Source: Acidimicrobiales bacterium (GTDB lineage Bacteria > Actinomycetota > Acidimicrobiia > Acidimicrobiales > SHLQ01). From it: 64,000 bases of DNA. The stretch is taken from contig JAHDEJ010000017.1 in the NCBI GenBank assembly GCA_020628865.1, positions 1,534 through 65,533 on the forward strand. Direction: 5' to 3'. Position 1 is the first letter of the stretch. The number at the start of each line of letters is the position of its first letter. The position numbers and the translations under genes were made by a program. Below the pieces are notes generated by a model that was not told the origin of the DNA, searched no databases, and worked only from the letters and a program-made list of their open reading frames with translations. Below are positions 40,491 through 60,233 of this stretch, one piece after another.

Positions 40491-40491
40491 C

Positions 40492-43281: not shown

Positions 43282-43366
43282 CGTTGACTCCCTTGCCGGG
43301 ATCGTGCTGATCGCCGATCCGACAGTCTGACACGGAACGCGCAGCGTTCGGCAGCGTGCGCCGGAG

Positions 43367-45562: not shown

Positions 45563-45744
45563 CTCTCGCCCGTCTCGTGGAGCGAACCCACCGTTGCTCC
45601 TCACTCATTGTCACCGAAAGGACGTTCGGTTGACAATATGAGTCGCGGAGCGTGTGAATTTGCCCACGCATCCGGGTCGCGATGAACGCGCGCAGTCGGT
45701 CATCGGACGGTCCCGGGCCGGGTTCCGAGGCGTAGAGTGGCGCG

Positions 45745-47553: not shown

Positions 47554-49307
47554 CCGCTCCCGGCCCACGCGTCCCATCGAACATCGGCGCAACGCTGCGC
47601 CGCCTCTTCGGCTACCTGTTGATCCGGCGGGTGGTCGTTGCGGGCGCGGTCCTGCTGCTGCTCGCCGGGCTGCTGTTGCAGTCCATCCAGCCGTTGTTGT
47701 TCGGCAACGCCGTCGACGACGTGTTCGAAGGCCAGACCGACGGACTCGGCAGTCAGGCGCTGCTCATTCTGGTGCTCGCGCTCGTCACGTTCGTCCTGCG
47801 GTGGGCGGCAGCGAACCTGATTGCCATCGCCGCACAAACGGCGATGCGTCGGCTCAGACAGGAACTGTTCGAGAAGCTGCAGACGTTGTCGCTCGGCTTT
47901 CACGAGTCCCGTTCGTCCGGCGACCTGATGAGCCGGGTCACGTCCGACACCGAGGTCATCAACACGTTCCTCTCGTCGTCGTTGTTCGGCCTGGTTTCGG
48001 CGATGATCCAGATGGTCGCCATCACGGTGATCATGTTCAGCCTGGACGTCGTCCTCGCCATCGTCGTCCTGTTGATCGCCCCGCTGTCGCTGCTGGTGAT
48101 GAGTCGGATCGGCAAGCAGGTCGCCCGCAATTTCACGATCCTGCAAGGAGCGGTCGGGTCGATCAACGGCTACCTCGAGGAGCGGGTCACCGGCCAGAAG
48201 ACGTTGCAGGCCTACGGGCAGCAGGGGGCAACGCTCGAGGAGCTGCGCGAGCGATCGCTGGTCGCCCGCGACGCCGATCAGAAGGCATCGTTCCTCGGCT
48301 GGATGGTGATGCCGACCGTGCGGCTGGTCGGCAACGCCGATGTGGCTGCCATCGCGTTGATCGGTGGGATCATGGCGTCGAACGGTCGGGTCGGGGTCGG
48401 CACCGTCGTGGCCTTCCTGGGTTTCTCTCAGCAGTTCGCCATGCCGGTCGGTGCCATTTCTCGTTCGATCAATTCCGCGATCCAGTCGGCAGCGGGTGCG
48501 AACCGCGTCTTCGAGCTCCTCGACGAACAGCCCGCCATCACGGATGGCGAGGCGGCCAGGCCCTTCTCGCGGGCGGAGGGCGACGTGGTCTTCGACAACG
48601 TCGACTTCAGCTACGACACCGGCGGGCAGATCCTTTTCGACAATTCGTTCCACGCCCGACCCGGGCAGATGATCGGCATGGTCGGCCCGACGGGTGCCGG
48701 AAAGTCCACCATCATCAACCTGATCGGCCGGTTCTACGAGATCGACGACGGCGAGATCCGTCTCGACGGGGAACCCATCGTCGAACTCAAGCTGGACGAC
48801 CTGCGGCTGCGGGCTGCCGTCGTGCTGCAGACGCCGTTCCTCTTCAGCGAGACCGTCATGTACAACCTCAAGTACGGGCGGAGCGACGCGTCCGACGAGG
48901 AATGCATCGAAGCGGCGAAGGATGCGAACGCCCATCGGTTCATCGAACGGCTGCCCGACGGCTACGACACGGTGCTCTCCGAGGGCGGATCGAACCTCTC
49001 GCAGGGACAACGGCAGCTGCTCACCATCGCCCGGGCGATCGTGGCTCGACCCGACGTGCTGATCCTCGACGAGGCGACCTCATCGGTCGACACCCGCACG
49101 GAACGTGCCATTCAGCTGGCGATGAATCGACTGATGGAAGGACGAACGTCGTTCGTCATCGCCCACCGCCTGTCGACCATCCGGCACGCCGATCTCATCA
49201 TCGCCCTGGACGGTGGCGTGATCCGGGAGATCGGCCCGCACGAGGAACTGCTCGCAAACCGCGGGTTCTACCACGACCTGTTCATGCAGCAGTTCGCTCG
49301 GACCTGA
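47550..49307 (+). CDS. ABC exporter, fused permease-ATPase (MdlB-like partner)
   Basis: The start overlaps the upstream stop (ATGA). It has Walker A GPTGAGKST, signature LSQGQRQL and Walker B VLILDEATS. It is probably the heterodimer partner of the preceding gene. Confidence 0.9.
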   Translation: MTAPGPRVPSNIGATLRRLFGYLLIRRVVVAGAVLLLLAGLLLQSIQPLLFGNAVDDVFEGQTDGLGSQALLILVLALVTFVLRWAAANLIAIAAQTAMRRLRQELFEKLQTLSLGFHESRSSGDLMSRVTSDTEVINTFLSSSLFGLVSAMIQMVAITVIMFSLDVVLAIVVLLIAPLSLLVMSRIGKQVARNFTILQGAVGSINGYLEERVTGQKTLQAYGQQGATLEELRERSLVARDADQKASFLGWMVMPTVRLVGNADVAAIALIGGIMASNGRVGVGTVVAFLGFSQQFAMPVGAISRSINSAIQSAAGANRVFELLDEQPAITDGEAARPFSRAEGDVVFDNVDFSYDTGGQILFDNSFHARPGQMIGMVGPTGAGKSTIINLIGRFYEIDDGEIRLDGEPIVELKLDDLRLRAAVVLQTPFLFSETVMYNLKYGRSDASDEECIEAAKDANAHRFIERLPDGYDTVLSEGGSNLSQGQRQLLTIARAIVARPDVLILDEATSSVDTRTERAIQLAMNRLMEGRTSFVIAHRLSTIRHADLIIALDGGVIREIGPHEELLANRGFYHDLFMQQFART

Positions 49308-49901
49308 TCAGCGCAGATCCTCGGCGGCCTGGCGAACCTGTCGATCCCGGTCGTGGAGCGCCCGTTCGAGTGCCGCAGTGACCTCGGGACCGTCGAACGG
49401 CGCAAGTGCCAGCACGGCTCGCCGTCGGACCGGTGGCTTGTCGTCGAGGCCCGCAAGGATGGTGGGCAGGCCGTCGGGGTGGCCGATGGCGCCGAGGGCG
49501 GCAATGGCGGCCTCCCTGCAGATGGCGATGGTGTGTTCGATGCCGACACGGTTCAAGGCGGCCACGATCAGCGGATCGTCGTCCTCACGTTCGCCGAGTG
49601 CCCATGCCGCCGTCTCGACGACGAGGTCGTCCGGGTCCGACAGGAGCCCGACCAATGGCACCTCGCCGGCGATCGCCAGTTCGATTGCCCGGCAGCGGAC
49701 GTCGCGATCGGGATCCTCGAGACCTCGGGTGAGGTCGTCGTCGGTGAGCACGCCGGCCCGCAGACGCGCGCCCAACGAGAGGATGCGCAAGACTGGATCC
49801 GCCGAGGCACTTGCCCGGTCGAGCACAGCGATGTCCGCCGTGGTTCCGGCGAGCACGACGTCGGATCGATCGGGGTCGGGTGACTGGGCCATACGACTCA
49901 A
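49308..49901 (-). CDS. HEAT-repeat (PBS-lyase-HEAT-like) protein
   Basis: Repeats include DPDRDVRCRAIELA, DPDDLVVETAAWALGE, CREAAIAALGAIG, KPPVRRRAVLALA and DRDRQVRQAAEDL. Its stop abuts the convergent ABC gene stop (TGATCA). Confidence 0.6.
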   Translation of the reverse strand: MSRMAQSPDPDRSDVVLAGTTADIAVLDRASASADPVLRILSLGARLRAGVLTDDDLTRGLEDPDRDVRCRAIELAIAGEVPLVGLLSDPDDLVVETAAWALGEREDDDPLIVAALNRVGIEHTIAICREAAIAALGAIGHPDGLPTILAGLDDKPPVRRRAVLALAPFDGPEVTAALERALHDRDRQVRQAAEDLR

Positions 49902-49958
49902 GAACTCGACCGTGGATCCGATGGGACCACTCGCCTGCTGTCGCGATCACCTGGAGAA

Positions 49959-50639
49959 ATGAACATGTCACACATTGTCGTGTATGAATCGGCCGATGGT
50001 GCGTCCGGCTTCGAACGGTGTGGAAGCCTCGATGCGGCCATCGTCGCCGCCGAGCGACTGCGCAATGTCGAGGGAGTGACCTCACCGCGCATCTTCAAGC
50101 TCGAAGAGGTGCAGTTCGACTTCCGCCCGTACTTCCGGGTCGAGGTGAACGACGACGATGCTTCGCCGTCGGCAGCGCCGGTCGAGCGCACGGTGATTCC
50201 CGAGCCGCCGGTGATGGCTGCTCCCGAGGTGGCCGCGCCCGCCGAGGCGCCGGCACCTGAGCCGGAACCGGTTGTCGAACCCGAACCGATCGCGTCCGTC
50301 GAGGACATCGCCGATGCTCCCTCAGCCGAGCCGGTCAACGACCCGTTTGCGGAGACGTCGGACGACTCGACCGACTGGGTCACCGCCGATTCGGACAGCC
50401 AGGAAGCTGCCTTCGAACCGGAAGCCGAACTCGAGGCGATCTTCGCCACCGATCCGGAACCGGTACCGGAGAACACCGGCGAGGCATTGTTCGATTCGCT
50501 CCAGGGCGAGGCCCCCGACCCGGAGACCGTGTTCGACGACGTGGCCGATGTGGCCGAGGCCGCTGAAGAGGCGCCGATCGTCGAGGTTCCCGAGCCGGAC
50601 TCGATGGTGAGCGTCCGCAAGGGGCTCTTCGGACGCTGA
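49959..50639 (+). CDS. hypothetical protein: small N-terminal domain plus a long acidic, Pro/Glu/Ala-rich disordered tail
   Basis: This 226-aa ORF has GC-rich third positions. No family was recognised. Its strand is consistent with the neighbours. Confidence 0.5.
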   Translation: MNMSHIVVYESADGASGFERCGSLDAAIVAAERLRNVEGVTSPRIFKLEEVQFDFRPYFRVEVNDDDASPSAAPVERTVIPEPPVMAAPEVAAPAEAPAPEPEPVVEPEPIASVEDIADAPSAEPVNDPFAETSDDSTDWVTADSDSQEAAFEPEAELEAIFATDPEPVPENTGEALFDSLQGEAPDPETVFDDVADVAEAAEEAPIVEVPEPDSMVSVRKGLFGR

Positions 50640-50646
50640 GCGTGGC

Positions 50647-50928
50647 TCAGCTGCTGATGGCCTGTTCGAGCAGGAACCCGGCGACCAGGATCACGGAGCC
50701 GATCATGCCCGCAACGGCAACACCCAGGAACACCACCAGACCGATGAGCAGGAACAACGAGGTGATGCGCCGCAGCACCGACGGGTACGCGTCGGGGCCG
50801 TACTCTGCCTGCGCAGGCGGCTGGAAGCCGACGCCCAACTTCTGCAACAGCGAACGCTCGGGACGAGGCTCGATGGGCAGTTGCCGAGGTGACGGAGGGT
50901 TTTCACCGTGTCGTGCGATGCTGGTCAT
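50647..50928 (-). CDS. possible small membrane protein (two C-terminal TM helices)
   Basis: This 93-aa ORF has a hydrophobic hairpin ITSLFLLIGLVVFLGVAVAGMIGSVILVAGFLL and G/C-biased third positions. Its start abuts or overlaps the divergent PDZ-protease start. Confidence 0.4.
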   Translation of the reverse strand: MTSIARHGENPPSPRQLPIEPRPERSLLQKLGVGFQPPAQAEYGPDAYPSVLRRITSLFLLIGLVVFLGVAVAGMIGSVILVAGFLLEQAISS

Positions 50929-52275
50929 GTGCTGGACAGCGTAGTCACTCCCCCCGCCGACGCGACGGCAGAGGACACGTCACCGGGCGGCTCGTTCGTC
51001 TACTGGTTCGTGCTCGCGCTGGTGATGTTCGGGATCGGTGTGGCGCTCACGCTGTTCCGGATTCCGTACCTCGTGCTCGAGCCCGGCTCGACGTTCGAGA
51101 CGGAGGAGTTCGTCCAGGTCGAGGGCGCCGCGTCCTTCGAGAGCCCCGATGGTGAGGTCCGATTCGTCACCGTCACCCAGCGTCGGCTCTCGCCGGTTGG
51201 CTGGCTGATCTCGCGGTTCCGGGAGTCGGATCGCATCTTCCACGAGGACGAGCTGCTGCGCGGGCGCACGTTCGACGAGCAGCGCGAAGAAAACGCGCAG
51301 CTCATGCTGACCTCGCAGAGTAATTCGATCGCTGCGGCGCTCACCCAGCTCGGCTTCGAGGTTTCGGAGCCGGCCGGTGTCGTCGTGATCGACGTGGTCG
51401 ACGGCGGGGCCCTCGACGGCGTCGTCAGCCGGAACGACGTGATCACGGCGGTGGATGGCCAGACCTTCACGACTGTGCAGGAACTGTTCGACGTGCTCGA
51501 TCCGCGCCAACCGGGGGAGGAGGTCACGTTGCTGGTCAACCCACCGGGCGAAGCACCGATCGACGTGCCGGTCACCCTCACCGGAGACACTGCGGCCTTC
51601 CTCGGCGTTGCTCGGGGCGCGGAAGTGACCGACGCTGGCGACGGCGCCGTCATCGACGATGTGGTGCCCGGGGGTCCGGTCGCCGACCTCCTGGCCGCCG
51701 GAGACCGAATCACCCAGCTCGATGGTCAGCCGATCACGAACTTCGAGGACCTCGTGGTGTCGCTCTCCGATCGGCGCTCGGGCGACGTCGTCATGCTCGA
51801 AGCCGTTCGGCTCGACGGTTCGCTCGTGACCGGCGATGTGGAACTTGGAAGCCGGGCGCTCGAACGGGCCGGGTTGTTCAATGCGGCCACGCAGTTCCGC
51901 GATGCCGAGCTTCCCTTCAGCGTCGACATCCTGACGGAGGACGTGGGCGGCCCGTCGGCGGGTCTCGCCTTCACGATCACGGTGCTCGATGTGCTGACCG
52001 AGGGCGATCTGACCGGTGGCAACCAGATCGTGGTCACGGGAACGATGAATCGGGATGGCAGTGTCGGAGCGATCGGCGGGGTGCATCAGAAGGCTTTTGC
52101 CGCACGCGACGCCGACGCTGCGGTCTTCATCGTTCCCTCCGCGAACTTCGATGAAGCTCGCGCCGCGGTCGACGATCTTCGGATCGAACCGGTGGACACG
52201 CTGGCCGATGCGCTGGCGATCATCGGTGAGCTCGGCGGAAACGTGGACGAGCTTCCAACCGACGGCACCCTCTGA
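50908..52275 (+). CDS. membrane-anchored PDZ-domain protein with a Lon-type (S16) C-terminal protease domain (YlbL / Rv3194c-like)
   Basis: It has a TM helix FVYWFVLALVMFGIGVALTLF and two PDZ-like segments. The C-terminal S16 motifs are GGPSAGLAFTI and GTMNRDGSVGAIGGVHQK. The start is GTG 50908 or GTG 50929. Confidence 0.8.
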   Translation: MSCDAGHVLDSVVTPPADATAEDTSPGGSFVYWFVLALVMFGIGVALTLFRIPYLVLEPGSTFETEEFVQVEGAASFESPDGEVRFVTVTQRRLSPVGWLISRFRESDRIFHEDELLRGRTFDEQREENAQLMLTSQSNSIAAALTQLGFEVSEPAGVVVIDVVDGGALDGVVSRNDVITAVDGQTFTTVQELFDVLDPRQPGEEVTLLVNPPGEAPIDVPVTLTGDTAAFLGVARGAEVTDAGDGAVIDDVVPGGPVADLLAAGDRITQLDGQPITNFEDLVVSLSDRRSGDVVMLEAVRLDGSLVTGDVELGSRALERAGLFNAATQFRDAELPFSVDILTEDVGGPSAGLAFTITVLDVLTEGDLTGGNQIVVTGTMNRDGSVGAIGGVHQKAFAARDADAAVFIVPSANFDEARAAVDDLRIEPVDTLADALAIIGELGGNVDELPTDGTL

Positions 52276-52362
52276 ATTGGCGCTGTTCTTGGGCTCGGCC
52301 CGCCAAAAGTGGGCCATGGTGATCACAGAACCACGTTTCGTGGGGACGTACCATTGCGTTCG

Positions 52363-54345
52363 ATGGATGGCTCCACCGACAACCTGACGCCGGCCGAGGT
52401 CGCCAAGAAGACCTTTGGGTCACGCCTGCGCGGCGTGGACCCCCAAGAGGTCACCGCGTACCTCGAGCGGGTTTCCACCCAATTGCGCACCGCCGAGACC
52501 GACCGTGACGCCTGGAAGGCCGAGGTCGAACGCCTCCGCGAGGAGGTCGCCTCGCTGCAGGAGTCGCTCGTCCAGGAGCAGGCCGAACCGGACGAGGCCG
52601 CGCTCACCGAACAGCTCGGACAGGAGGCGGGTCGCGTGCTCACCGAAGCGCGGGCCGCTGCCGCCGATCGTCTCGCAGAAGCGGAGGCCGAGGCCGCAGA
52701 CATCATCGCGGCAGCCGAGGAGCTGCACGCCGAACGATCTCGGGCCGCTGATGCCGAGGCCGAACGGCTCCGCGCTGCCGCGCTCGACGAGGAGCGCCGC
52801 CGGTTGGAGGCGGCCGACGACGAGGCCGGAACCATCCGTGATCGTGCCCGTCAGGACGCCGAGTCGATTCGGGCGGAAGCCGGTGTCGATCAACAATCCG
52901 CCGACGCCGAAGCGGCGCGCATCGTTCGTGAAGCCGAACTCACCCGCCGCCGGATTCTCGAGGACCTCGCTCGGCGCCGCTCCGCCGCTCGACGGCAGAT
53001 CGAACAGCTACGCGCCGGCCGGGAACGGCTGTTGGCATCGCACGAGGTCGTCCGCCGGGCACTGGAAGAGATCAGCGAAGAACTGAACATCTCCATGTCG
53101 GAGGCGCGGGCCGCTGCGGAGACGGCGGGTCACAACGTGAGCGACTCCACGCTCGAGGAGATCGAGGCAGAAATCGAGACGGCCAAGCTGGCCGGTCTGT
53201 TGGACACCGGTCCCGTTCCCGTGGTCGCACCCGCCCGGACTCGGGCGGAAATGACGTCCGAGCCAACGATTGAAATGGCCCCGGTCGCCGCGGCCGAGGA
53301 TGCGTCGACGTCGGTCGAGGAACCGGCGGCCGAGCCCGAAGCGCTCGAGCCGGAGGAACCCGCGGCAGCGGAAGACACCGTCCCCGCCGACGAGGGCAGC
53401 GACGAGGACGCCGTCGCCGCGCCGGACATCGGACGTTCGGACGACGCGGCAGCCGGAGACGATGGCGATGGTCCGCTCGCCGAAGTGGTGAGCCTGACTG
53501 CCGCCCGCCAGGACGTCGACACGGATCGACATCCGGCGAACCGCAGGTCGACAAAGCCGAGGGACCAGGAACCCGAATCGGCGCCGGTGCCCGAGCCGCT
53601 GGAAGTGGTGAGCGCCGTCGACGACTCTGACGAACCTGACGAACCAGACGAGCCCTCGGAACCGGACGAGGTCGAGGTCGCCGCGGTGGACGAGCCGGTA
53701 GAGGTGGAAGCGCCGGCAGAGGTCGAGGAGCCAGCGGAGGTCGTCGAGCCGGTTGCCGCCGACGCCGAGCCCGAACCGGAGCCCGAAGCTGCACCGGAGT
53801 CAGAGCCCGAACCCGAGGCTGACCCGACCAGGGTGGACAGCCTTTTCGCTCGCATGCGTCAGACCCAGGACGCGGCCGTCGTGGCGGAAGCGGCCGAAGC
53901 CGACACCGCACCCGCGGGCGAATCCGATGCTGCGACCGAGGCCGGCGTCGCTCCCCAGCAACTTGCCGACGAGGTCGGACGGAAGCTGAAGCGGGTGCTG
54001 GCCGATGAGCAGAGCGAGGTGCTCTCGACGCTCCGGGCAGGAACCGACGGCGCCACCGTCGAAGGACTGCTCGGCACCGAAGCCGATCATCGCCTCCGCT
54101 ACTGGTCGGCGACGGAGGCCGTGCTGGGCGACGGCGTTGCCGATGCACCCGAGGCCGAGGCCGAGATCGGCCGCCTCGTCGAAGGAATCCGGCGACGGGT
54201 GGACGCCTGCCTCACCGACGTGTCCGACGATCCGGACGCCGTCGTGGACCGGCTGCGCAGCGTCTACCGCGAGGTGAAGACCCAGCGGATCGCAGAGCAC
54301 TCGCAGATCATTTGTGGTGCCGTGAAGGATCTCAACGCCAGCTGA
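52363..54345 (+). CDS. DivIVA-domain protein with a long coiled-coil and an acidic Pro/Glu repeat region
   Basis: ATG 52363 lies in ORF 52309..54345. The N-terminus LTPAEVAKKTFGSRLRGVDPQEVTAYLERV is the DivIVA signature. An Ala/Glu/Arg coiled-coil follows, with DEPDEPDEPSEPDE and EPEPEPEA tracts. Confidence 0.75.
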   Translation: MDGSTDNLTPAEVAKKTFGSRLRGVDPQEVTAYLERVSTQLRTAETDRDAWKAEVERLREEVASLQESLVQEQAEPDEAALTEQLGQEAGRVLTEARAAAADRLAEAEAEAADIIAAAEELHAERSRAADAEAERLRAAALDEERRRLEAADDEAGTIRDRARQDAESIRAEAGVDQQSADAEAARIVREAELTRRRILEDLARRRSAARRQIEQLRAGRERLLASHEVVRRALEEISEELNISMSEARAAAETAGHNVSDSTLEEIEAEIETAKLAGLLDTGPVPVVAPARTRAEMTSEPTIEMAPVAAAEDASTSVEEPAAEPEALEPEEPAAAEDTVPADEGSDEDAVAAPDIGRSDDAAAGDDGDGPLAEVVSLTAARQDVDTDRHPANRRSTKPRDQEPESAPVPEPLEVVSAVDDSDEPDEPDEPSEPDEVEVAAVDEPVEVEAPAEVEEPAEVVEPVAADAEPEPEPEAAPESEPEPEADPTRVDSLFARMRQTQDAAVVAEAAEADTAPAGESDAATEAGVAPQQLADEVGRKLKRVLADEQSEVLSTLRAGTDGATVEGLLGTEADHRLRYWSATEAVLGDGVADAPEAEAEIGRLVEGIRRRVDACLTDVSDDPDAVVDRLRSVYREVKTQRIAEHSQIICGAVKDLNAS

Positions 54346-54384
54346 GCTCACGTCGGCGCATGGCAGCGATATCCTCGACGGGAC

Positions 54385-57363
54385 ATGGCAACTGACGAAG
54401 AAACCGAGTCCGAGAGTCGCCGCCCGGGTCGAGGCCGGATCATCGGCTTCATCGTGGTGGTGGCGCTCATCGTCCTGCTCGCATCACTGCGTGGGATCTT
54501 TGGCCTCTACACGGACTATCTCTGGTACGACGACATCGGACGTACCGACGAATGGACGACCGTTCTGTCGGCCCAGATCATCCTGTCCGTCATCTTCATC
54601 GCGGTGTTTTTCGTACTCGCGTGGATCAACCTGGTCATCGCCGACCGCATTGCGCCGGCCCTGCGCCCACCCGGCCCCGAAGAGGAGCTGTTGGTGCGGT
54701 GGCACGAGACCATCGGCCGGCGCACCGGCCTCATCCGCTTTGCCATCGCCGGCTTCTTCGCACTGGTCGCCGGCGGGGGCGCGGCGTCGCAGTGGAACGA
54801 GTGGATCCTGTTCACCAACCCGGTGGACTTCGGCACGACCGAACCGGTCTTCGGCCGCGACATTGCGTTCTACATCTTCCGGCTGCCGTTCCTGAACTTC
54901 GTCGTCAGCTGGTTCTTCGCCGCATTCATCATCATCGGCATCATCACGGCCATCTGGCACTACATCAACGGCGGCATCCGCATTCAGACCGTCGACCGGC
55001 GGAGCACCCCGCAGGTCAAGGCCCACCTGTCGATCATCCTGGCCTTTCTGGCCCTCTTCAAGGCCGCCGACTACTACCTGCAGCGGTTCGACCTGTTGAC
55101 CTCCCAGCAGGGCTTCGCCCGCGGCGCCTTCTACACCGATCTGAACGCCTCCCTCCCCGCAATTCAGCTCCTGCTGTTGATCTCGCTGTTCTCGGTGGGG
55201 CTGCTGGTGGCCAACATCTGGCGCCGCGGCTGGGCGCTGCCGTCGATCGCTGTCGGGCTCTGGGCGCTGATCGCCGTCATCGCCGGTGGCATCTACCCGG
55301 CCGTCATCCAGCAGCTGCAGGTGTCTCCCGACCAGGAGGCGCGTGAACGCCCGTACATCGAACGGAACATCGAGGGCACCCGGGCCGCGTTCGAACTGGA
55401 CGCCGTGAACACGGGCGACTTCGTCTACACCGGCGACATCGAGGTCGACGAGCTGCTCCAGCATCGCAACGTCCTCAGCAACGCTCGCCTGCTCGACCCA
55501 CGCATCGTCGACGATTCGTTCACCCTCAACCAGAAGGACCGCGACTTCTACCGCGACTTCGACGAGTCGCTCGACATCGACCGGTACGTGATCGACGGCG
55601 AGCTCACCCCGATGGTCGTCGGTGTGCGCGAGTTGGGGTCCATCAACGCGGCGTCGTGGGAAGAACTCCACGCTGTCAACACTCACGGCTACGGCATCGT
55701 CATGGCGCCGGCCAACCGCGTCGACGAGAACGGCGTCCCCCAGTTCGTCGTCCGTGACGCACCGCTCGAGTCCGACCTGGACGAGATCCAGATCGATCAG
55801 CCCCAGATCTACTTTGGCGAGAACAACACGCCGTACGCCGTCGTTTCGACCACGCAGAACGAGTTCGAGCCGGGCAACGCCGGAGGCTTCAACTACGACG
55901 GTGAGGGTGGCGTGCCCATGTCGTCGTTCCTGCAGCGGCTCGCCTTCTCGTTCCGCTTCGGAGAGATCGAGCCGTTGATCTCGGGCACGCTCACCGACGA
56001 GTCCGAGGTGCTGTTCATTCGGGACATCGTCGATCGGGCCCGCCGGATCGCCCCCTTCCTCCAGTACGACAGCAACCCGTACGCCGTCGTGTCCGACGGC
56101 GGCATCAGCTGGATCATCGATGCGTACACCACGTCGAGCGACTACCCGTACTCCGACCTCGCCCCGACCACGCAGCTGCCCGACGAGTCCGACCTGAATC
56201 GGAACTTCAACTACGTGCGCAACTCGGTGAAGGTCGTGGTCGATGCCTACGACGGTTCCGTCGAGTTCTACGCAGTGGATGAGCCCGGCGATCCGGACGC
56301 CGATCCGATCCTGTGGGCCTACCGTCAGCAATTCGACGGCCTCTTCCGGAGCATGGACGAGATGCCCGCAGACATCCGGGAGCACCTGCGCTTCCCGGAA
56401 GACCTGTTCCGGGTGCAGACGGAACTGTGGGGTCGCTACCAGCTCGAGGATGTGAGTGAGTTCTTCACGGCCAACCTGGCCTGGGAAGTCGCTGCGAACA
56501 CCGACTCGGTGTCGGGCGGCCAGGAAGTCTTCATCGTCGATGCGAACGACGCGACCCAGGTGATCGGCCGGACCGGGCGACGGGTGGATCCCTTCTACCA
56601 GGTCCTCGAACTTCCCGACGAAGACGAACCGTCCTTCGTCGTTTCCCGCTCGTACGTGCCCCGGTCACTCAACGACGGCATCCGCGAGATCACGGCCTAC
56701 ATCATCGGTCGGGTCGACGAGAACGGAAATCCCGAGTTGCGTCAGTACCTCATGTCGACCGGCGCCAACGTCGAAGTCGATGGACCGAGCAACATTCACG
56801 AGCTCCTGAGCATCGACCCGGTCATCTCCGAGGAGCAGACACAGCTCAGCCAGGCGGGATCCGAGTTCCTGGCCGGCAACCTGCTGCCACTGCTCATCGA
56901 CGACGCAATCATCTACGTCCGCCCGTACTACGTGCGCCCCGAGCCCGAGTCCGACACGTCGAACCAGACGACCGAGCCGGCCATCCAGTTCGTCGCCGTC
57001 GTGGTCGAGGACTCGATCGGGTTCGCGCCGACCTATGCCGAGGCGATGGCCGCGCTGTTCAACATCTCCGTGGCGGACGCCGCGGCGATCACGGGAACGG
57101 CCGTGCCGACGGGCGTGGACGCCGACCGTCCGCCGACCGGTGTGATCGGCCCAGACAGCCCAAGCGGCGTCCAGGAGCGTCTGGCCGACATTCTTGAGCG
57201 GCTCAACTCGGCCGAGGAAGCGTTGCCGGACTTCGCCGAGTACGAGCGTCTCCAGGAGGACGCACTTGCCGACCTCGAGCGACTGCTGCGGGATCTGGAG
57301 GCCGGCGAGGTTCCTGAGGTGCTCGGCGAAGAGGAACCGGAAGAAACCTCGGCGAACGCCTGA
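54385..57363 (+). CDS. UPF0182-family large membrane protein (Rv3193c-like)
   Basis: The product is 992 aa. N-terminal TM helices carry LYTDYLWYDDIG, and a large extracytoplasmic domain and acidic tail follow, matching the actinobacterial UPF0182 layout. Confidence 0.9.
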   Translation: MATDEETESESRRPGRGRIIGFIVVVALIVLLASLRGIFGLYTDYLWYDDIGRTDEWTTVLSAQIILSVIFIAVFFVLAWINLVIADRIAPALRPPGPEEELLVRWHETIGRRTGLIRFAIAGFFALVAGGGAASQWNEWILFTNPVDFGTTEPVFGRDIAFYIFRLPFLNFVVSWFFAAFIIIGIITAIWHYINGGIRIQTVDRRSTPQVKAHLSIILAFLALFKAADYYLQRFDLLTSQQGFARGAFYTDLNASLPAIQLLLLISLFSVGLLVANIWRRGWALPSIAVGLWALIAVIAGGIYPAVIQQLQVSPDQEARERPYIERNIEGTRAAFELDAVNTGDFVYTGDIEVDELLQHRNVLSNARLLDPRIVDDSFTLNQKDRDFYRDFDESLDIDRYVIDGELTPMVVGVRELGSINAASWEELHAVNTHGYGIVMAPANRVDENGVPQFVVRDAPLESDLDEIQIDQPQIYFGENNTPYAVVSTTQNEFEPGNAGGFNYDGEGGVPMSSFLQRLAFSFRFGEIEPLISGTLTDESEVLFIRDIVDRARRIAPFLQYDSNPYAVVSDGGISWIIDAYTTSSDYPYSDLAPTTQLPDESDLNRNFNYVRNSVKVVVDAYDGSVEFYAVDEPGDPDADPILWAYRQQFDGLFRSMDEMPADIREHLRFPEDLFRVQTELWGRYQLEDVSEFFTANLAWEVAANTDSVSGGQEVFIVDANDATQVIGRTGRRVDPFYQVLELPDEDEPSFVVSRSYVPRSLNDGIREITAYIIGRVDENGNPELRQYLMSTGANVEVDGPSNIHELLSIDPVISEEQTQLSQAGSEFLAGNLLPLLIDDAIIYVRPYYVRPEPESDTSNQTTEPAIQFVAVVVEDSIGFAPTYAEAMAALFNISVADAAAITGTAVPTGVDADRPPTGVIGPDSPSGVQERLADILERLNSAEEALPDFAEYERLQEDALADLERLLRDLEAGEVPEVLGEEEPEETSANA

Positions 57364-57379: not shown

Positions 57380-57835
57380 TCAGGCCTTGCGCTTCTGCAC
57401 CGGCTGCCAGCCGGCGGGGCGAGTCACTTCAGAGCGCCAGCGCGGGCGACGCGGTGCCGTGAGGTCCACGACCACGGGGTCGCCTTCGAGGCCGGACGTC
57501 GGCGTCGACCCGGCGGCGGTGCGCTGCGGGACGGTCGCCGGCTCGTTGACGGATGGTTCGTCGAGCCGGCTCGGGGCGTCGAGCGATGCGACGATCGACT
57601 GGAGGGACGACTGGATTCCGGCGATCTCGTCGCTCAGGTTCGCCGAGGCCGTGCGGGATGCGTCGACGGCAACGAAGTCGCCCATGGTCGGCGGCTCCAC
57701 CTGCGGGTCGAGCACGTTCTCGACGAACTGCAGACGGGTGTTGAGTTCCTGAATCTGCTGCACGACGGCGAACAGAATTCGATCGTGCTGACGGGTGTAG
57801 CGGCGAGCGTCCGCGTCAACAGGGTTGATCGTCAT
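57380..57835 (-). CDS. hypothetical protein
   Basis: This 151-aa ORF has GC-rich third positions. No family was recognised. It is convergent with UPF0182. Confidence 0.4.
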   Translation of the reverse strand: MTINPVDADARRYTRQHDRILFAVVQQIQELNTRLQFVENVLDPQVEPPTMGDFVAVDASRTASANLSDEIAGIQSSLQSIVASLDAPSRLDEPSVNEPATVPQRTAAGSTPTSGLEGDPVVVDLTAPRRPRWRSEVTRPAGWQPVQKRKA

Positions 57836-57990
57836 GGTGGGGAGGTCTTTCGCATCGTTGCCCGCTTGCGGCCCTCTCCGAGTTGCTCACTGTAGATGAC
57901 GGAGAGTGAGCGTGCGTGCATACCTCGTCACGTATCGGGTGGAGCATGGTGGGGGTGGAGCCGCAGCGACGCGACTGCGATACTGGTCGA

Positions 57991-59178
57991 ATGAGCGACC
58001 TCGAACGCATTGACCAGGCCATCGACGAACTGCTGGCGCAGCACGATCCCAGTTCGATGTCGGGGCAGGAGTTCCGCGGTCATCAGTTCGACGCCAACCT
58101 TGCGGTCATCAACTTTCCCGAGGGCGAGGGTGGGATGGGGCTGTCGCCGAAGCTCCAACAACACATCGAGAAGCGGCTTGCGGCTGCGGGCAAGGAGCCA
58201 GACGATCCGGTCACGTTCTTCCGTCACCTTGCCGGCCCGACCATCGCAACGCACGGCAGCCCCGAGGTGCGGGCCCGCTTCCTGCGGCCGATGTTCACGG
58301 GCGAAGAGAAGTGGTGTCAGCTCTTTTCCGAGCCGGGCGCCGGCTCCGACTTTGCCGGACTTGCGGCGAAGGGTCTTCGTGACGGCGACGAATGGGTCGT
58401 CAACGGGCAGAAGGTGTGGAACACGCTCGCCCATCTTGCGGACTTCGGCATGCTGGTGGTCCGGACCGATCCGTCCCTGCCGAAGCACAAGGGCATGACC
58501 TACTTCGCGATGGACATGCGGGCCGAAGGAGTCGAGGTTCGGCCGTTGCGTCAGATCACCGGCGAGGCCGAGTTCAACGAGGTCTACATGACCGACGTCC
58601 GGATTCCCGATGCCTTCCGAATCGGTGAGGTCGGCGAAGGATGGCGGGCCGCGTTGACGACGTTGATGAACGAACGCGTCTCCATCGGTGGCAACGCTCC
58701 GCGCCGGGGCGGCGGTTCGGTCGGCATGTTGATGGCCGAGTGGGAGAAGCTGCCCGACGAGGAGCGCACGCCACTCGCTCGGGACAAGGTCACGAAGCTG
58801 TGGGCGAAGGCGGAGGCACTCCGGCTCACGAACATCCGCGCATCCCAGAACCGCAAGGTCGGCAACCCGGGTCCGGAGGGTTCGGTGGCCAAGCTGATGT
58901 TCGCCGAGCTGAACAAGGACGTCTACGAACTCTCCGTCGATCTGCTCGGCATGGCGGGCCAGGTCGACTACGACTACACCTTCCGTCGGCCCGAGACCCT
59001 CGACGTTTCGGGTACCTCCACGGGTTCGCGGTACGCGTTCCTGCGGGCGCGGGCCAACAGCATCGAGGGTGGCACGTCGGAGATCATGCGGAACATCCTC
59101 GGCGAGCAGGTGCTGGGCCTTCCCGGCGAGCCCCGCGTCGACAAGGAGATCCCCTGGGTCGAGGTTCCCCGCAGCTAA
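57991..59178 (+). CDS. acyl-CoA dehydrogenase family protein
   Basis: ATG 57991 lies in ORF 57916..59178. Motifs are CQLFSEPGAGSDFAGL, WVVNGQKVWNT and GGTSEIMRNILGE. Confidence 0.9.
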   Translation: MSDLERIDQAIDELLAQHDPSSMSGQEFRGHQFDANLAVINFPEGEGGMGLSPKLQQHIEKRLAAAGKEPDDPVTFFRHLAGPTIATHGSPEVRARFLRPMFTGEEKWCQLFSEPGAGSDFAGLAAKGLRDGDEWVVNGQKVWNTLAHLADFGMLVVRTDPSLPKHKGMTYFAMDMRAEGVEVRPLRQITGEAEFNEVYMTDVRIPDAFRIGEVGEGWRAALTTLMNERVSIGGNAPRRGGGSVGMLMAEWEKLPDEERTPLARDKVTKLWAKAEALRLTNIRASQNRKVGNPGPEGSVAKLMFAELNKDVYELSVDLLGMAGQVDYDYTFRRPETLDVSGTSTGSRYAFLRARANSIEGGTSEIMRNILGEQVLGLPGEPRVDKEIPWVEVPRS

Positions 59179-59210
59179 CTGCGCTGTGCTGCTCAGCTCC
59201 GCTGTGCGGC

Positions 59211-59693
59211 TCAGCTGCGCTGAGCTTGTTCGAAGGTCACCTTGCGGATGATCTCGCTTGCGGTGAACCGGCCGATGGGGCCGGTCGAATAGACGGCCGT
59301 GTTGATCGTGCCGTCGGGTTCCACGAGGAAACCGGTGGCATGCATGATCTCGCGCCCACCAGTCTGTTTGTGCGCTCCCGTGTCGGCCGCGATCTTGTGG
59401 TGGTCGATCTCTGCGTACATCGGGTAACCGACGTGGAGTCCGGCCTTGAGCGCAGCCACCGATTCGATCGAATCGACGGACGCGGCGGCGACCTTCACGC
59501 CGAGATTGATGAGCGGGCCACCATGAACTGCGAAGTCAACCAACTGTTGACGGCAGTACGGTCACCAGTCGCCCCGGTAGAACATGATGACGGCCCAGCT
59601 TCCGGCGACGGAGGCGGTGAGGTCGACCTCGTTGCCGTCGAGATCCTTCGCGAGCAGTGGAGGAAGTGCGTCTCCCGTGACGAGTTGGCTCAT
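59211..59693 (-). CDS. AhpC/TSA-redoxin (thioredoxin-fold) protein with an in-frame TGA at the redox-active position (U-P-Y-C): candidate selenoprotein, alternatively a nonsense pseudogene
   Basis: From ATG 59693 there are 43 sense codons, then TGA (59562..59564), then 116 codons to stop 59211, all in one frame. The joined sequence reads ...WAVIMFYRGDW-[TGA]-PYCRQQL..., which is the family motif FYRGxWCPYC. A SECIS-like hairpin follows. Confidence 0.6.
59527..59557 (-). promoter_or_regulatory. SECIS-like stem-loop immediately 3' of the in-frame UGA
   Basis: The mRNA reads ACUGC-C-GUCAAC-[AGUUG]-GUUGAC-UUC-GCAGU. It has a 6-bp upper stem, a 5-bp lower stem and a 5-nt apical loop containing G. 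Sixteen nt lie between the UGA and the apical loop. Confidence 0.45.
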
Positions 59694-59702
59694 GGAGCGA
59701 AC

Positions 59703-60233
59703 CTATCCGACGATCGTGTAGCCGTCGATCTCGGTGAGCAGCGCGCCCGTTGGCGCCGGCGGGACGTCGAGGCCGTGCGCTTCGTTGCGGACCTCACCGA
59801 TCCACTTGCTGTGCTGGTATTCGTGATTGACGACGGCCACCAGCAGCGTGTGCGCGATGACTCGGAGTTGGGCCGGTGCGCCGACGTCGCCCCCGTCGAT
59901 ACGGCCGATCGTGTGGTGGACACGTTCGCGCACGGCCGACCGGTAGTCGCCGATTCGCCCGACGTTGGGGAGCACGCCACGGTCGACTTCGAGTGTGGCC
60001 GAGTCCATCAGGCCGTCGAGTTCGGGGTCCGGGCTGGGCTCGGCGGCCGTGAGATTGCGCAGCATGAAGTGGGCAACCGCCGCTTGGTGACCGAGGTGCC
60101 AGCCGATGGCACTGGACTCCTCGTGCGGGCGCCAGACCACCTGGTCGGCGCTCAGGTCGGTCCAGAGCGAGTCGGTCCAGCCGATGGCACGGTCGTACTC
60201 GTGGAGCAGTTCGTTCAACGTCGGTGTGGTCAT
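59703..60233 (-). CDS. DinB-family protein
   Basis: The 176-aa product has the four-helix-bundle His pattern (WHLGH...HEYQH). Its stop lies 9 nt before the redoxin ATG. Confidence 0.7.
   Translation of the reverse strand: MTTPTLNELLHEYDRAIGWTDSLWTDLSADQVVWRPHEESSAIGWHLGHQAAVAHFMLRNLTAAEPSPDPELDGLMDSATLEVDRGVLPNVGRIGDYRSAVRERVHHTIGRIDGGDVGAPAQLRVIAHTLLVAVVNHEYQHSKWIGEVRNEAHGLDVPPAPTGALLTEIDGYTIVG

What the first reader, a model, noticed from the sequence alone, without database searches (positions are those of the whole stretch)
59211..59693. Candidate selenoprotein: redoxin with in-frame TGA at the catalytic Cys position (U-P-Y-C) and a SECIS-like hairpin
The ORF track lists only a 110-aa ORF (59211..59543, alternative start). 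The same frame upstream contains 43 sense codons from ATG 59693 (MSQLVTGDALPPLLAKDLDGNEVDLTASVAGSWAVIMFYRGDW). A single TGA at 59562..59564 is then followed by PYCRQQLVDF... The joined 160-codon product is one complete AhpC/TSA-redoxin domain. The TGA falls exactly where this family carries the first Cys of FYRGxWCPYC. G/C-biased third positions continue on both sides of the TGA. Five nt after the TGA a hairpin begins (ACUGC-C-GUCAAC-[AGUUG]-GUUGAC-UUC-GCAGU, 59527..59557). Its apical loop lies 16 nt past the UGA and contains G, which is within the geometry described for bacterial SECIS elements. Thioredoxin-fold UxxC proteins are a known class of bacterial selenoproteins. Standard gene callers would truncate or split this gene.
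Basis: partly seen in the sequence, partly recalled or inferred. Interest (0 to 1): 0.85.

Follow-up and report, generated by a model that had tools for sequence, protein, structure and literature searches.

The report
Real selenocysteine peroxiredoxin-like redox gene
This is a genuine gene for a small peroxiredoxin-like redox protein whose active-site residue is selenocysteine, encoded by an in-frame TGA; the type has been known since 2004-2008, but public annotation still cuts every copy in two.

Summary

- **The gene.** Window 59693..59211 (minus strand) is one 160-codon AhpC/TSA-domain gene with a single in-frame TGA at 59562-59564, in the motif YRGDW-U-PYC.
- **Conservation of the TGA.** All 89 copies recovered from other assemblies carry TGA at this codon. 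They span 38-99% amino-acid identity and are mostly from Acidimicrobiales MAGs. More distant full-length homologues carry Cys there (WCxxC).
- **Both sides are translated.** Strain-level substitutions on both sides of the TGA are almost all at third codon positions.
- **The hairpin.** A 6-bp stem with a 5-nt loop (AGUUG) follows the TGA. The loop starts 16 nt after the TGA, which meets the published bacterial SECIS criteria. RNAalifold predicts the same stem, four of six pairs show compensatory changes, and synonymous sites are frozen across codons 48-54.
- **Not a code change.** TGA is the ordinary stop for 32 of 41 predicted window genes.

The family is already known as "Prx-like 1" or "Prx-like thiol:disulfide oxidoreductase" (PF00578, UxxC). 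A published ocean-metagenome member is 37% identical, with Sec aligned to Sec.

One thing is untested. selA/B/C/D could not be examined in the source genome. They are documented in cultured Acidimicrobiales. Verdict: a new member of a known kind, of modest interest.

The parts
59211..59693 (-). Complete selenoprotein gene: 160 codons plus stop, Prx-like UxxC redoxin (AhpC/TSA domain)
   Evidence: Translation. PF00578 E=3.5e-21 over residues 7-131. tblastn relatives match residues 1-160 across the TGA.
59565..59693 (-). N-terminal 43 codons (ATG 59693 to W43). Public gene calls list this piece as a separate 43-aa ORF.
   Evidence: Conserved as protein with synonymous variation: for example G7, P11 and R40 are conserved in 96-100% of copies yet use 4-5 different codons. 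Against strain L002, 14 of 16 substitutions in this piece are at third positions.
59562..59564 (-). In-frame TGA, read as the Sec codon (U44)
   Evidence: TGA in 89 of 89 copies at 38-99% amino-acid identity. Cys at this column in full-length homologues P0089, P0092, P0093 and others. Aligned with U of the ocean-metagenome (GOS) Prx-like 1 read JCVI_READ_286511.
59553..59564 (-). Redox motif U44-P45-Y46-C47
   Evidence: P45, Y46 and C47 are 98-99% conserved yet use 3, 2 and 2 synonymous codons, so this stretch just after the UGA is translated in frame. C47 aligns with the peroxidatic Cys of 2-Cys Prx and U44 with its Thr.
59535..59551 (-). Conserved SECIS core: 6-bp stem GUCAAC/GUUGAC with the 5-nt apical loop AGUUG. 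It starts 10 nt after the UGA, and the loop starts 16 nt after it.
   Evidence: RNAalifold predicts exactly this stem on 74 distinct sequences. 95.3% of cells are paired, 4 of 6 pairs have changes on both sides, and 0 of 500 shuffles reach the observed values. It meets the published bSECIS constraints.
59527..59557 (-). Extended hairpin in this lineage: lower stem ACUGC/GCAGU plus internal loop plus the core
   Evidence: MFE -12.5 kcal/mol alone. It is part of the -24.8 kcal/mol fold with z=-3.57. The lower-stem columns vary across the family.
59532..59552 (-). Codons 48-54 (R-Q-Q-L-V-D-F), where synonymous sites are frozen by the overlapping RNA structure
   Evidence: Third-position entropy is 0.16-0.48 bits (1.05 at Q49), against about 1.5 elsewhere. 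CGT is used in 100%, TTG in 94% and GTT in 96% of copies. These are rare codons in the window (CGT 0.13, CAA 0.19, TTG 0.08, GTT 0.08), and the joint probability of this spelling is about 1e-4.
59541..59543 (-). TTG (Leu51) inside the SECIS loop, used by ORF finders as the false start of the 110-aa truncated product
   Evidence: Database homologues start at M/L-VDF.
59268..59282 (-). Invariant G138-P139-I140-G141-R142 motif; R142 is equivalent to the active-site Arg of peroxiredoxins
   Evidence: G138, P139, G141 and R142 are invariant and I140 nearly so, in 33 sequences. The motif aligns with 'PVGR' of Prx 4kw6.
59211..59213 (-). Real stop codon (TGA) of the gene
   Evidence: TGA is the ordinary stop of 32 of 41 predicted window genes.
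59703..60233 (-). Upstream DinB_2-family gene ending 9 nt before the ATG. It is a likely operon partner in this lineage only.
   Evidence: PF12867 on the identical gene in L001-L005. Found next to the selenoprotein gene only in L001-L008.

Best explanation
Window 59693..59211 (minus strand) encodes a cytoplasmic 160-residue selenoprotein with a peroxiredoxin fold and the active-site motif W-U-P-Y-C.

**Translation (inferred).** During translation, the 17-nt stem-loop that starts 10 nt after UGA-44 (GUCAAC-AGUUG-GUUGAC), together with a lineage-specific lower stem, acts as a bacterial SECIS. It recruits SelB carrying GTP and Sec-tRNA(Sec) to the ribosome, so the UGA is read as selenocysteine instead of stop. 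The same nucleotides also encode R48-F54, which is why that peptide and its codon spelling are nearly invariant.

**Chemistry (inferred).** U44 sits just before the N-terminus of the active-site helix, at the position of the nucleophilic Cys of a thioredoxin CxxC. C47 sits one turn later, at the position of the peroxidatic Cys of peroxiredoxins. R142 is the Prx active-site Arg. The most likely reaction is attack of the selenolate on a peroxide or a disulfide substrate, followed by a U44-C47 selenenylsulfide that a thiol reductant recycles.

**What is shown.** The gene structure, the conserved TGA, the Sec/Cys pairing, translation on both sides of the TGA, the conserved and co-varying hairpin, the Prx fold of a Cys homologue, and homology to a published selenoprotein family.

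**What is inferred.** Actual Sec insertion, the presence of selA/B/C/D in this genome, and the substrate.
For: 1. TGA is at the same codon in 89 of 89 copies from about 80 species-level genomes, 38-99% identical to the window protein.
2. All 82 database relatives are truncated at this point. Gene calls split the gene into 43 + 110 aa.
3. Full-length homologues at 35-42% identity have Cys at this column, in WCxxC.
4. There is purifying selection on both sides. Against strains L002 and L007, 27 of 29 and 20 of 20 substitutions are at third codon positions. Codons 45-47, right after the UGA, are conserved as amino acids with synonymous variation.
5. RNAalifold predicts the hairpin independently. 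95.3% of cells are paired, 4 of 6 pairs have compensatory changes (A-U to G-C in L056/L069/L079 and in L048), and 0 of 500 shuffles match.
6. The hairpin meets all four published bSECIS constraints: loop 5 nt, stem 6 bp, G at loop position 2 followed by U, spacing 16 nt, MFE -12.5 kcal/mol.
7. Synonymous sites are frozen over codons 48-54 and spelled with rare codons.
8. TGA is the normal stop in the window, 32 of 41 genes.
9. BLASTP to the published GOS 'Prx-like 1' selenoprotein JCVI_READ_286511 gives 37% identity, E=7e-27, with U aligned to U.
10. The AlphaFold model of Cys homologue P0092 (pLDDT 96.3) matches only peroxiredoxins, with TM up to 0.83. The first Cys of its WCxxC lies just before the active-site helix and the second in the helix's first turn; these are the positions of U44 and C47.
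11. The Sec machinery and large selenoproteomes are documented in cultured Acidimicrobiales. Ilumatobacter coccineus has SelD/SelA/SelB and 15 selenoproteins, I. nonamiensis has 10, and Ca. Microthrix parvicella has 7 (PMC5029168 Tables S1 and S2). They are also reported in Actinomarinales and in a sponge-associated Acidimicrobiales bin.
Against: - No selA, selB, selD or tRNA-Sec was found in the 64-kb window or in about 1.4 Mb of related loci. The rest of the source genome could not be read, so the machinery is unverified for this organism.
- Some Acidimicrobiia lack it, for example Acidimicrobium ferrooxidans.
- Rfam has no matching SECIS family. This is expected and not informative.
- In the most divergent paralogues (L082, L083), single-sequence folds show a hairpin at the same place clearly in only one of four copies.
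- There is no experimental evidence of Se incorporation, and no biochemical characterisation of any family member is known to me.
Confidence: 0.9

Rival explanations
1. Nonsense pseudogene: a Cys codon (TGC or TGT) mutated to TGA and the gene is dead.
For: A single in-frame stop, and gene callers report only fragments.
Against: TGA is conserved in 89 of 89 copies down to 38% identity. Substitutions between strains are almost all synonymous on both sides of the TGA. There are no frameshifts or further stops. The hairpin is conserved and co-varies.
Confidence: 0.01
2. Two separate products: translation really ends at the UGA, giving a 43-aa peptide, and restarts at the TTG/ATG of L51. The result would be a split redoxin or just a 110-aa protein.
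For: L51 is a potential start codon (TTG, or ATG in some relatives), and databases annotate the gene this way.
Against: Codons 45-50, between the UGA and that 'start', are conserved as amino acids (P, Y, C, R, Q, Q) with synonymous variation at P45, Y46 and C47. They contain the redox Cys that aligns with the Prx peroxidatic Cys. The 110-aa piece lacks the whole active site and the first beta strands of the fold. The TTG is explained by its place in the SECIS loop.
Confidence: 0.03
3. The UGA is recoded, but not to Sec. One route is Cys inserted by a SelB-dependent non-canonical tRNA(Cys) with a UCA anticodon. I recall this from Vargas-Rodriguez et al. 2018 and did not check it here. Another route is Trp or Gly through a lineage-wide code change.
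For: The SECIS-like hairpin and the Cys homologues fit SelB-dependent Cys insertion as well as Sec insertion. The Sec machinery was not seen directly.
Against: TGA terminates 32 of 41 predicted genes in the window, so there is no code reassignment. If Cys were the product, a plain TGC or TGT would be expected to appear somewhere among 89 copies, and none does. Related cultured Acidimicrobiales have SelA and SelD, which points to real Sec synthesis, and 7-15 predicted selenoproteins.
Confidence: 0.04
4. Sequencing or assembly error created the TGA in this window.
For: None beyond the fact that it is a single base triplet.
Against: The identical TGA is found in seven independent assemblies of the same or a sister strain from Logan, ENA and NCBI, and in all other species.
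Confidence: 0

Closest known systems
'Prx-like 1' selenoprotein family of the Global Ocean Sampling (GOS) study (Zhang & Gladyshev 2008, PMC2398784). This is the 'Prx-like thiol:disulfide oxidoreductase' (PF00578; UxxC/UxxU) listed in the 2026 review PMC13188914.
   Same: Same Pfam domain and the same UxxC motif at the same place. A published member, JCVI_READ_286511 (..FYRGHWUPYCRRQLVAF..SYSSGPLGRV..), is 37% identical (E=7e-27) with Sec aligned to Sec, and it shares the YRGxW-U-PYC and YSxGPxGR signatures. Like the window gene, it is predicted only by computation.
   Different: The window gene belongs to a tight, mostly Acidimicrobiales clade with the signature UPYCRQQLVDF / YSTGPIGRF. That exact string was not found in the held (truncated) GOS supplement. 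Within this clade no Cys form was seen, whereas the GOS family as a whole has about 12 Cys homologues per Sec form.
Selenocysteine-containing peroxiredoxin PrxU (TxxU; NCBIfam NF040737)
   Same: Same AhpC/TSA fold and the same use of Sec in the active site. The window protein gives a weak hit, 39.5 bits.
   Different: In PrxU the Sec replaces the peroxidatic Cys (TxxU). Here the Sec sits three residues earlier, at the Thr position, and the peroxidatic-Cys position keeps Cys. The score is far below the 270-bit cut-off.
Canonical 2-Cys peroxiredoxins / AhpC (for example PDB 4kw6 and 4ql7; structural matches 5ovq and 3a5w)
   Same: The fold matches: TM up to 0.83 for the model of a Cys homologue. 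Cys at the peroxidatic position and the active-site Arg (GPIGR vs PVGR) are conserved.
   Different: The PxxxTxxC motif is replaced by RxxxUxxC: Pro becomes Arg and Thr becomes Sec. Sequence similarity is weak (E about 1e-7), and no NCBIfam peroxiredoxin equivalog reaches its cut-off. There is no C-terminal resolving-Cys extension.
E. coli fdhF-type bacterial SECIS, and the bSECISearch consensus
   Same: A stem-loop inside the coding region directly after the UGA, with a small apical loop carrying G followed by U, and the loop 16 nt from the UGA. All consensus constraints quoted in PMC13188914 are met. From memory (Liu et al. 1998, not checked here), the minimal fdhF element is a 17-nt stem-loop 11 nt after the UGA. 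Here it is 17 nt and lies 10 nt after the UGA.
   Different: The sequence is unrelated. No bulged U is evident in the 6-bp upper stem. SelB binding is untested.

Membership tests
Bacterial selenoprotein gene (Sec-UGA plus bSECIS) | In-frame UGA conserved among orthologues, with coding sequence on both sides | tested here: met
   89 of 89 copies carry TGA. Third-position-biased substitutions on both sides. Amino-acid conservation with synonymous variation on both sides.
Bacterial selenoprotein gene (Sec-UGA plus bSECIS) | Sec/Cys pair: homologues carry Cys at the UGA column | tested here: met
   Full-length homologues P0089, P0092, P0093, P0095, P0097 and others have WCxxC.
Bacterial selenoprotein gene (Sec-UGA plus bSECIS) | bSECIS consensus: apical loop 3-9 nt, upper stem 4-16 bp, G in the first two loop positions, 16-37 nt between UGA and loop, MFE <= -7.5 kcal/mol (PMC13188914) | tested here: met
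   Loop AGUUG (5 nt, G at position 2 followed by U), stem 6 bp, spacing 16 nt, MFE -12.5 kcal/mol.
Bacterial selenoprotein gene (Sec-UGA plus bSECIS) | The hairpin is maintained by selection (covariation, suppressed synonymous change) | tested here: met
   4 of 6 pairs compensatory, 0 of 500 shuffles match; third-position entropy 0.16-0.48 bits in codons 48-54, against about 1.5 elsewhere.
Bacterial selenoprotein gene (Sec-UGA plus bSECIS) | selA, selB, selC (tRNA-Sec) and selD present in the same genome | not testable with these tools
   Absent from the 64-kb window and from 86 loci. Indirect support: present in Ilumatobacter, Ca. Microthrix, Actinomarinales and a sponge Acidimicrobiales bin.
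Bacterial selenoprotein gene (Sec-UGA plus bSECIS) | Selenium demonstrated in the protein (75Se labelling or mass spectrometry) | not testable with these tools
   Needs an experiment.
Prx-like 1 / Prx-like thiol:disulfide oxidoreductase selenoproteins (PF00578, UxxC) | AhpC/TSA (PF00578) domain | tested here: met
   E=3.5e-21, 75.9 bits against a cut-off of 26.
Prx-like 1 / Prx-like thiol:disulfide oxidoreductase selenoproteins (PF00578, UxxC) | UxxC redox motif | tested here: met
   U44-P-Y-C47.
Prx-like 1 / Prx-like thiol:disulfide oxidoreductase selenoproteins (PF00578, UxxC) | Sequence homology to published members, with Sec aligned | tested here: met
   37% identity, E=7e-27 to JCVI_READ_286511 from the paper's Dataset S1, with YRGxW[U]PYCR aligned.
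Canonical peroxiredoxin (Prx/AhpC/BCP) | PxxxTxxC active-site motif with catalytic Thr | tested here: not met
   R40-G-D-W-U44-P-Y-C47 aligns with P-L-D-F-T-F-V-C of 4kw6, so Pro is replaced by Arg and Thr by Sec.
Canonical peroxiredoxin (Prx/AhpC/BCP) | Peroxidatic Cys and active-site Arg; Prx fold | tested here: met
   C47 and R142 align with the peroxidatic Cys and with PVGR. The Cys-homologue model (pLDDT 96.3) matches Prx structures at TM 0.8.
Canonical peroxiredoxin (Prx/AhpC/BCP) | Score above the curated NCBIfam equivalog cut-offs (AhpC, PrxU, PrxQ, BCP) | tested here: not met
   The best hit is TIGR03137 at 46 bits against a cut-off of 272. All others are far below their cut-offs.

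The most novel reading that the evidence does not exclude
This Acidimicrobiales clade may be an obligately Sec-dependent, mechanistically distinct enzyme. It would be a peroxiredoxin scaffold in which selenocysteine has replaced the catalytic Thr while the peroxidatic Cys and the Arg are kept. Catalysis would then run through a U44-C47 selenenylsulfide, as a new kind of peroxidase or disulfide reductase rather than a Prx or a thioredoxin. No Cys form is tolerated in any of the 89 copies seen, and the SECIS is so constrained that it fixes the peptide RQQLVDF. A rarer alternative that is also not excluded is that the UGA is read as Cys by a SelB-dependent tRNA(Cys)-UCA.
Probability: 0.25. Interest if true: 0.45.

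Novelty: new member of a known kind. Interest (0 to 1): 0.3.

Why it matters
- **Annotation.** Every public protein record of this clade is a truncated 91-114-aa fragment or a split 43 + 110-aa pair. These are labelled 'hypothetical protein', 'redoxin domain-containing protein' or 'alkyl hydroperoxide reductase subunit AhpC'. No NCBIfam model captures the family. Correcting this would fix hundreds of MAG annotations.
- **Ecology.** It would add a marker of selenium use in Acidimicrobiales, including the sponge symbionts Ca. Poriferisodalis.
- **A clean teaching example.** The clade shows an RNA element (SECIS) dictating both the codon spelling and the peptide sequence of the seven codons it overlaps.
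- **Limits.** It does not open a new question. The family and the mechanism of bacterial Sec insertion are established.

Tried and rejected
- **Rfam.** A gathering-threshold scan of the whole window and a permissive scan of 59450-59620 found nothing relevant. I know of no Rfam model for bacterial in-frame SECIS elements of this type, so this says nothing either way.
- **Sec machinery search.** ARAGORN on the window and all loci, and tblastn with E. coli SelA, SelB and SelD taken from NC_000913.3, found nothing. The machinery is not linked to the gene.
- **Other in-frame TGAs.** A GC3-based scan of the window gave 35 candidates, apparently non-coding frames or gene junctions; none was followed up. 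It even missed the true case at the threshold used, so I dropped it as uninformative.
- **Conserved operon partners.** DinB_2 and the amine oxidase are adjacent only in the closest relatives. An acyl-CoA dehydrogenase gene is nearby in many loci but at variable distance, so no functional inference was drawn.
- **Restricted tools.** Aligning the window translation was rejected because it contains the stop codon. I used the post-TGA segment and Cys homologues instead.
- **Structure prediction.** Single-sequence AlphaFold of P0093 was poor (pLDDT 59.5) and was discarded in favour of the alignment-based model.
- **Divergent paralogues.** Single-sequence folds of L082, L083, L048 and L061 often prefer alternative structures. 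I therefore rely on the alignment-level evidence, not on individual MFE folds.
Full report
**1. The observation**

On the minus strand, ATG 59693 opens 43 sense codons (MSQLVTGDALPPLLAKDLDGNEVDLTASVAGSWAVIMFYRGDW). A TGA follows at 59562-59564, and the same frame then continues PYCRQQLVDF... to the stop at 59211-59213. The mechanical ORF list holds only the two pieces, of 43 aa and 110 aa, the latter with a TTG start at 59543. Joined, with U written as C, the 160 residues form one AhpC/TSA domain (PF00578, E=3.5e-21, residues 7-131). GC by codon position is the same on both sides of the TGA (0.67/0.44/0.81 and 0.64/0.45/0.78).

Alone it folds at -12.5 kcal/mol. In a 53-nt context it folds at -24.8 kcal/mol, z=-3.57.

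**2. Is the TGA real and conserved?**

Seven independent public assemblies of the same or a sister strain carry the identical TGA (L001-L007), so it is not a base-call error.

A search of 5.8 billion proteins returned 82 relatives. Every one is 91-114 aa long and begins just after the TGA region, or in one case ends at ...YYRGDW. That is the pattern expected when gene callers stop at a Sec codon across a whole family.

A scan of one genome per prokaryotic species found 200 relatives. The best 80 loci are almost all Acidimicrobiales or Acidimicrobiia MAGs, including many Ca. Poriferisodalis sponge symbionts. A few bins are labelled Burkholderiales, Tectomicrobia or Verrucomicrobia. Translating them shows an in-frame stop at exactly this codon in every copy. 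The stop is TGA in 89 of 89 copies, never TAA, TAG, TGC or TGT, at 38-99% amino-acid identity.

**3. Are both sides translated as one protein?**

- *Strain comparison.* Against strain variants L002 and L007 the gene differs at 29 and 20 of 483 positions. Of these, 27 of 29 and 20 of 20 are third codon positions, spread on both sides of the TGA.
- *Family comparison.* N-terminal residues such as G7, P11 and R40 are 96-100% conserved while using 4-5 synonymous codons.
- *Codons right after the TGA.* P45, Y46 and C47 lie before the supposed TTG start. They are 98-99% conserved with 3, 2 and 2 synonymous codons.

This excludes a pseudogene, and it excludes a model in which translation ends at the UGA and restarts at L51.

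**4. Sec/Cys pair**

An exhaustive HMMER search of 1.84 billion representatives with the post-TGA segment found only 189 relatives. Many are truncated. A set of full-length proteins of 160-177 aa matches from their residue 45 onward. These carry Cys where the window has TGA: YRGDW-C-RYC, YRGHW-C-RYC, YRGAW-C-PFC. A few lack the first Cys but keep the second (P0123, P0150), so C47 is the more deeply conserved residue.

**5. The RNA element**

Immediately after the TGA, the nucleotides CCGUACUGCCGUCAACAGUUGGUUGACUUC are nearly invariant across the clade.

- RNAalifold on 74 distinct sequences predicts one helix: GUCAAC/GUUGAC around the loop AGUUG, at window 59551-59535.
- Pair counting gives 95.3% of cells paired. 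Four of six pairs have changes on both sides. Examples are A-U to G-C in L056, L069 and L079, and A-U to G-C plus A-U to G-U in L048. No shuffle out of 500 reaches the observed values, and every slid register does much worse.
- Third-position entropy collapses to 0.16-0.48 bits over codons 48-54 (1.05 at Q49), against about 1.5 bits elsewhere. Elsewhere includes invariant residues such as G138 and R142, which still use 4-5 codons.
- The fixed spelling uses codons that are rare in this 66.6% GC window: CGT 0.13, CAA 0.19, TTG 0.08, GTT 0.08. The joint probability is about 1e-4.

The element meets every constraint of the published bacterial SECIS consensus. That consensus requires a loop of 3-9 nt, a stem of 4-16 bp, G within the first two loop positions (usually followed by G or U), 16-37 nt from UGA to loop, and MFE <= -7.5 kcal/mol (PMC13188914). 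The measured values are 5 nt, 6 bp, A-G-U, 16 nt and -12.5 kcal/mol.

Two caveats apply. The lower stem ACUGC/GCAGU is specific to this lineage. In the most divergent paralogues, single-sequence folds show a hairpin in the same register clearly in only one of four copies (L082, CUCGCC/GGCGGG).

**6. Not a code change**

TGA ends 32 of the 41 genes I predicted in the window, including this one. ORFs of up to 992 codons are uninterrupted.

**7. The Sec machinery**

This is the one element I could not test in the source genome.

- The window has no tRNA genes at all.
- No tRNA-Sec was found in any fetched locus.
- tblastn with E. coli SelA, SelB and SelD against the window and about 1.4 Mb of related loci found nothing.

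The genes are therefore not linked, and the rest of the genome is out of reach of these tools. The indirect evidence is good:

- Table S1 of Peng et al. 2016 lists SelD, SelA and SelB as present in Ilumatobacter coccineus, I. nonamiensis and Ca. Microthrix parvicella, all cultured Acidimicrobiia. Their predicted selenoproteomes are unusually large, at 15, 10 and 7 proteins. Acidimicrobium ferrooxidans has none.
- A 2026 preprint reports selA/B/C/D in all 84 complete Actinomarina genomes.
- A sponge-associated Acidimicrobiales bin (bin76) has SelA, SelB and SelD.

**8. What the protein is like**

Against solved structures, the best sequence matches are 2-Cys peroxiredoxins and AhpC, at E about 1e-7. 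In that alignment FYRGDW-U-PY-C pairs with FYPLDF-T-FV-C:

- the Sec occupies the conserved Thr position of the Prx TxxC motif;
- C47 occupies the peroxidatic-Cys position;
- GPIGR pairs with PVGR, which holds the Prx active-site Arg.

An alignment-based AlphaFold model of the Cys homologue P0092 is confident (pLDDT 96.3). Its best 50 structural matches are all peroxiredoxins, with TM up to 0.83. The first Cys of its WCxxC lies just before the active-site helix and the second in the first turn.

From memory (Copley et al. 2004, not checked here), this is the register in which the thioredoxin CxxC superposes on the Prx TxxC. The protein is therefore a Prx-fold scaffold with a thioredoxin-like U-x-x-C centre. 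The likely chemistry is selenolate attack followed by a U44-C47 selenenylsulfide. Whether the substrate is a peroxide or a disulfide is not known.

No signal peptide is apparent, by eye only. The upstream DinB_2 gene ends 9 nt before the start codon, but that pairing holds only in the closest relatives.

**9. Comparison with what is known**

The family is published.

- Table 2 of Zhang & Gladyshev 2008 lists 'Prx-like 1' (pfam00578, UxxC), with 225 Sec sequences and 2,740 Cys homologues in GOS.
- Their Dataset S1 holds members such as JCVI_READ_286511 (..VVLFYRGHWUPYCRRQLVAF..SYSSGPLGRV..). The window protein matches it at 37% identity, E=7e-27, Sec on Sec.
- The 2026 review lists 'Prx-like thiol:disulfide oxidoreductase, PF00578, UxxC/UxxU' as predicted with high confidence.

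The window gene is not PrxU (TxxU) and not a canonical peroxiredoxin. The Thr and Pro of PxxxTxxC are replaced, and no NCBIfam equivalog comes near its cut-off. The exact clade signature UPYCRQQLVDF / STGPIGRF was not found in the held part of the GOS dataset. I therefore file it as a new member of a known kind. It represents a large Acidimicrobiales clade that is systematically mis-annotated.

**10. Verdict**

I put the confidence that this is a functional Sec-encoding gene at about 0.9. The remainder is split between Cys or other recoding, a split gene, and an unexpected absence of the machinery. Interest is modest at 0.3: it is a correct, well-supported call of a known selenoprotein type. 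Its value is mainly for annotation and as a clear example of SECIS-imposed codon and peptide constraint.

Noticed in passing
L083:2677-2688 (Ca. Tectomicrobia MAG JACPCT010000067.1); compare L082:10777-10788: One of two tandem Prx-like paralogues reads TGA-CCG-TAC-TGA, an apparent U-P-Y-U motif with two Sec codons. Its counterpart in L082 has TGA..TGC. UxxU forms are listed for this family in the 2026 review. I did not check whether this copy has a suitable second SECIS or is a sequencing error.
   Followed up: partly
L082:10115-10830 and L083:2009-2730: Two Sec-containing paralogues of the family lie in tandem, about 660 nt apart, in two distant MAGs. Their post-UGA sequences differ from the Acidimicrobiales consensus, and single-sequence folds show a hairpin in the expected register clearly in only one of four copies.
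   Followed up: partly
window 59182-59226: An 18-nt tandem repeat of 2.5 copies (85% matches) spans the gene's real stop codon. It lies between that stop and the end of the convergent acyl-CoA dehydrogenase gene (57916-59178, + strand). Copy number differs between strains: L001 reads AQRS*AAQRS*AAQRS, while L002 reads AQRS*AAQRG*.
   Followed up: partly
L016, L030, L031 (contigs CAWGJI010000014.1, JBLIMK010000007.1, CAXMRH010000155.1): Contigs binned as Acidobacteriota, Verrucomicrobiales and Chthoniobacterales carry copies 58-70% identical to the Acidimicrobiales gene, with the same SECIS sequence. This could be mis-binning or horizontal transfer.
   Followed up: no
window 59211-59693, and all database relatives P0001-P0082: Every public protein entry of this clade is truncated to 91-114 aa or split into 43 + 110 aa. 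They are named 'hypothetical protein', 'redoxin domain-containing protein' or 'AhpC'. No NCBIfam model reaches its cut-off, so NCBI's annotation models have nothing with which to name it as a selenoprotein.
   Followed up: yes
window 59541-59543: The TTG that ORF finders take as the start of the 110-aa fragment is Leu51, inside the SECIS apical loop. Its 94% conservation as the rare TTG codon comes from the RNA element, not from start-codon function.
   Followed up: yes
window 38610-57363: The surrounding genes look like ordinary chromosomal content: a GGDEF-EAL protein, two ABC exporter genes, a PDZ/Lon-C protease and a 992-aa UPF0182 protein. Several ORFs (43356-44666, 49959-50639, 52420-52896, 53008-53532, 57380-57835) have no Pfam match.
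   Followed up: partly
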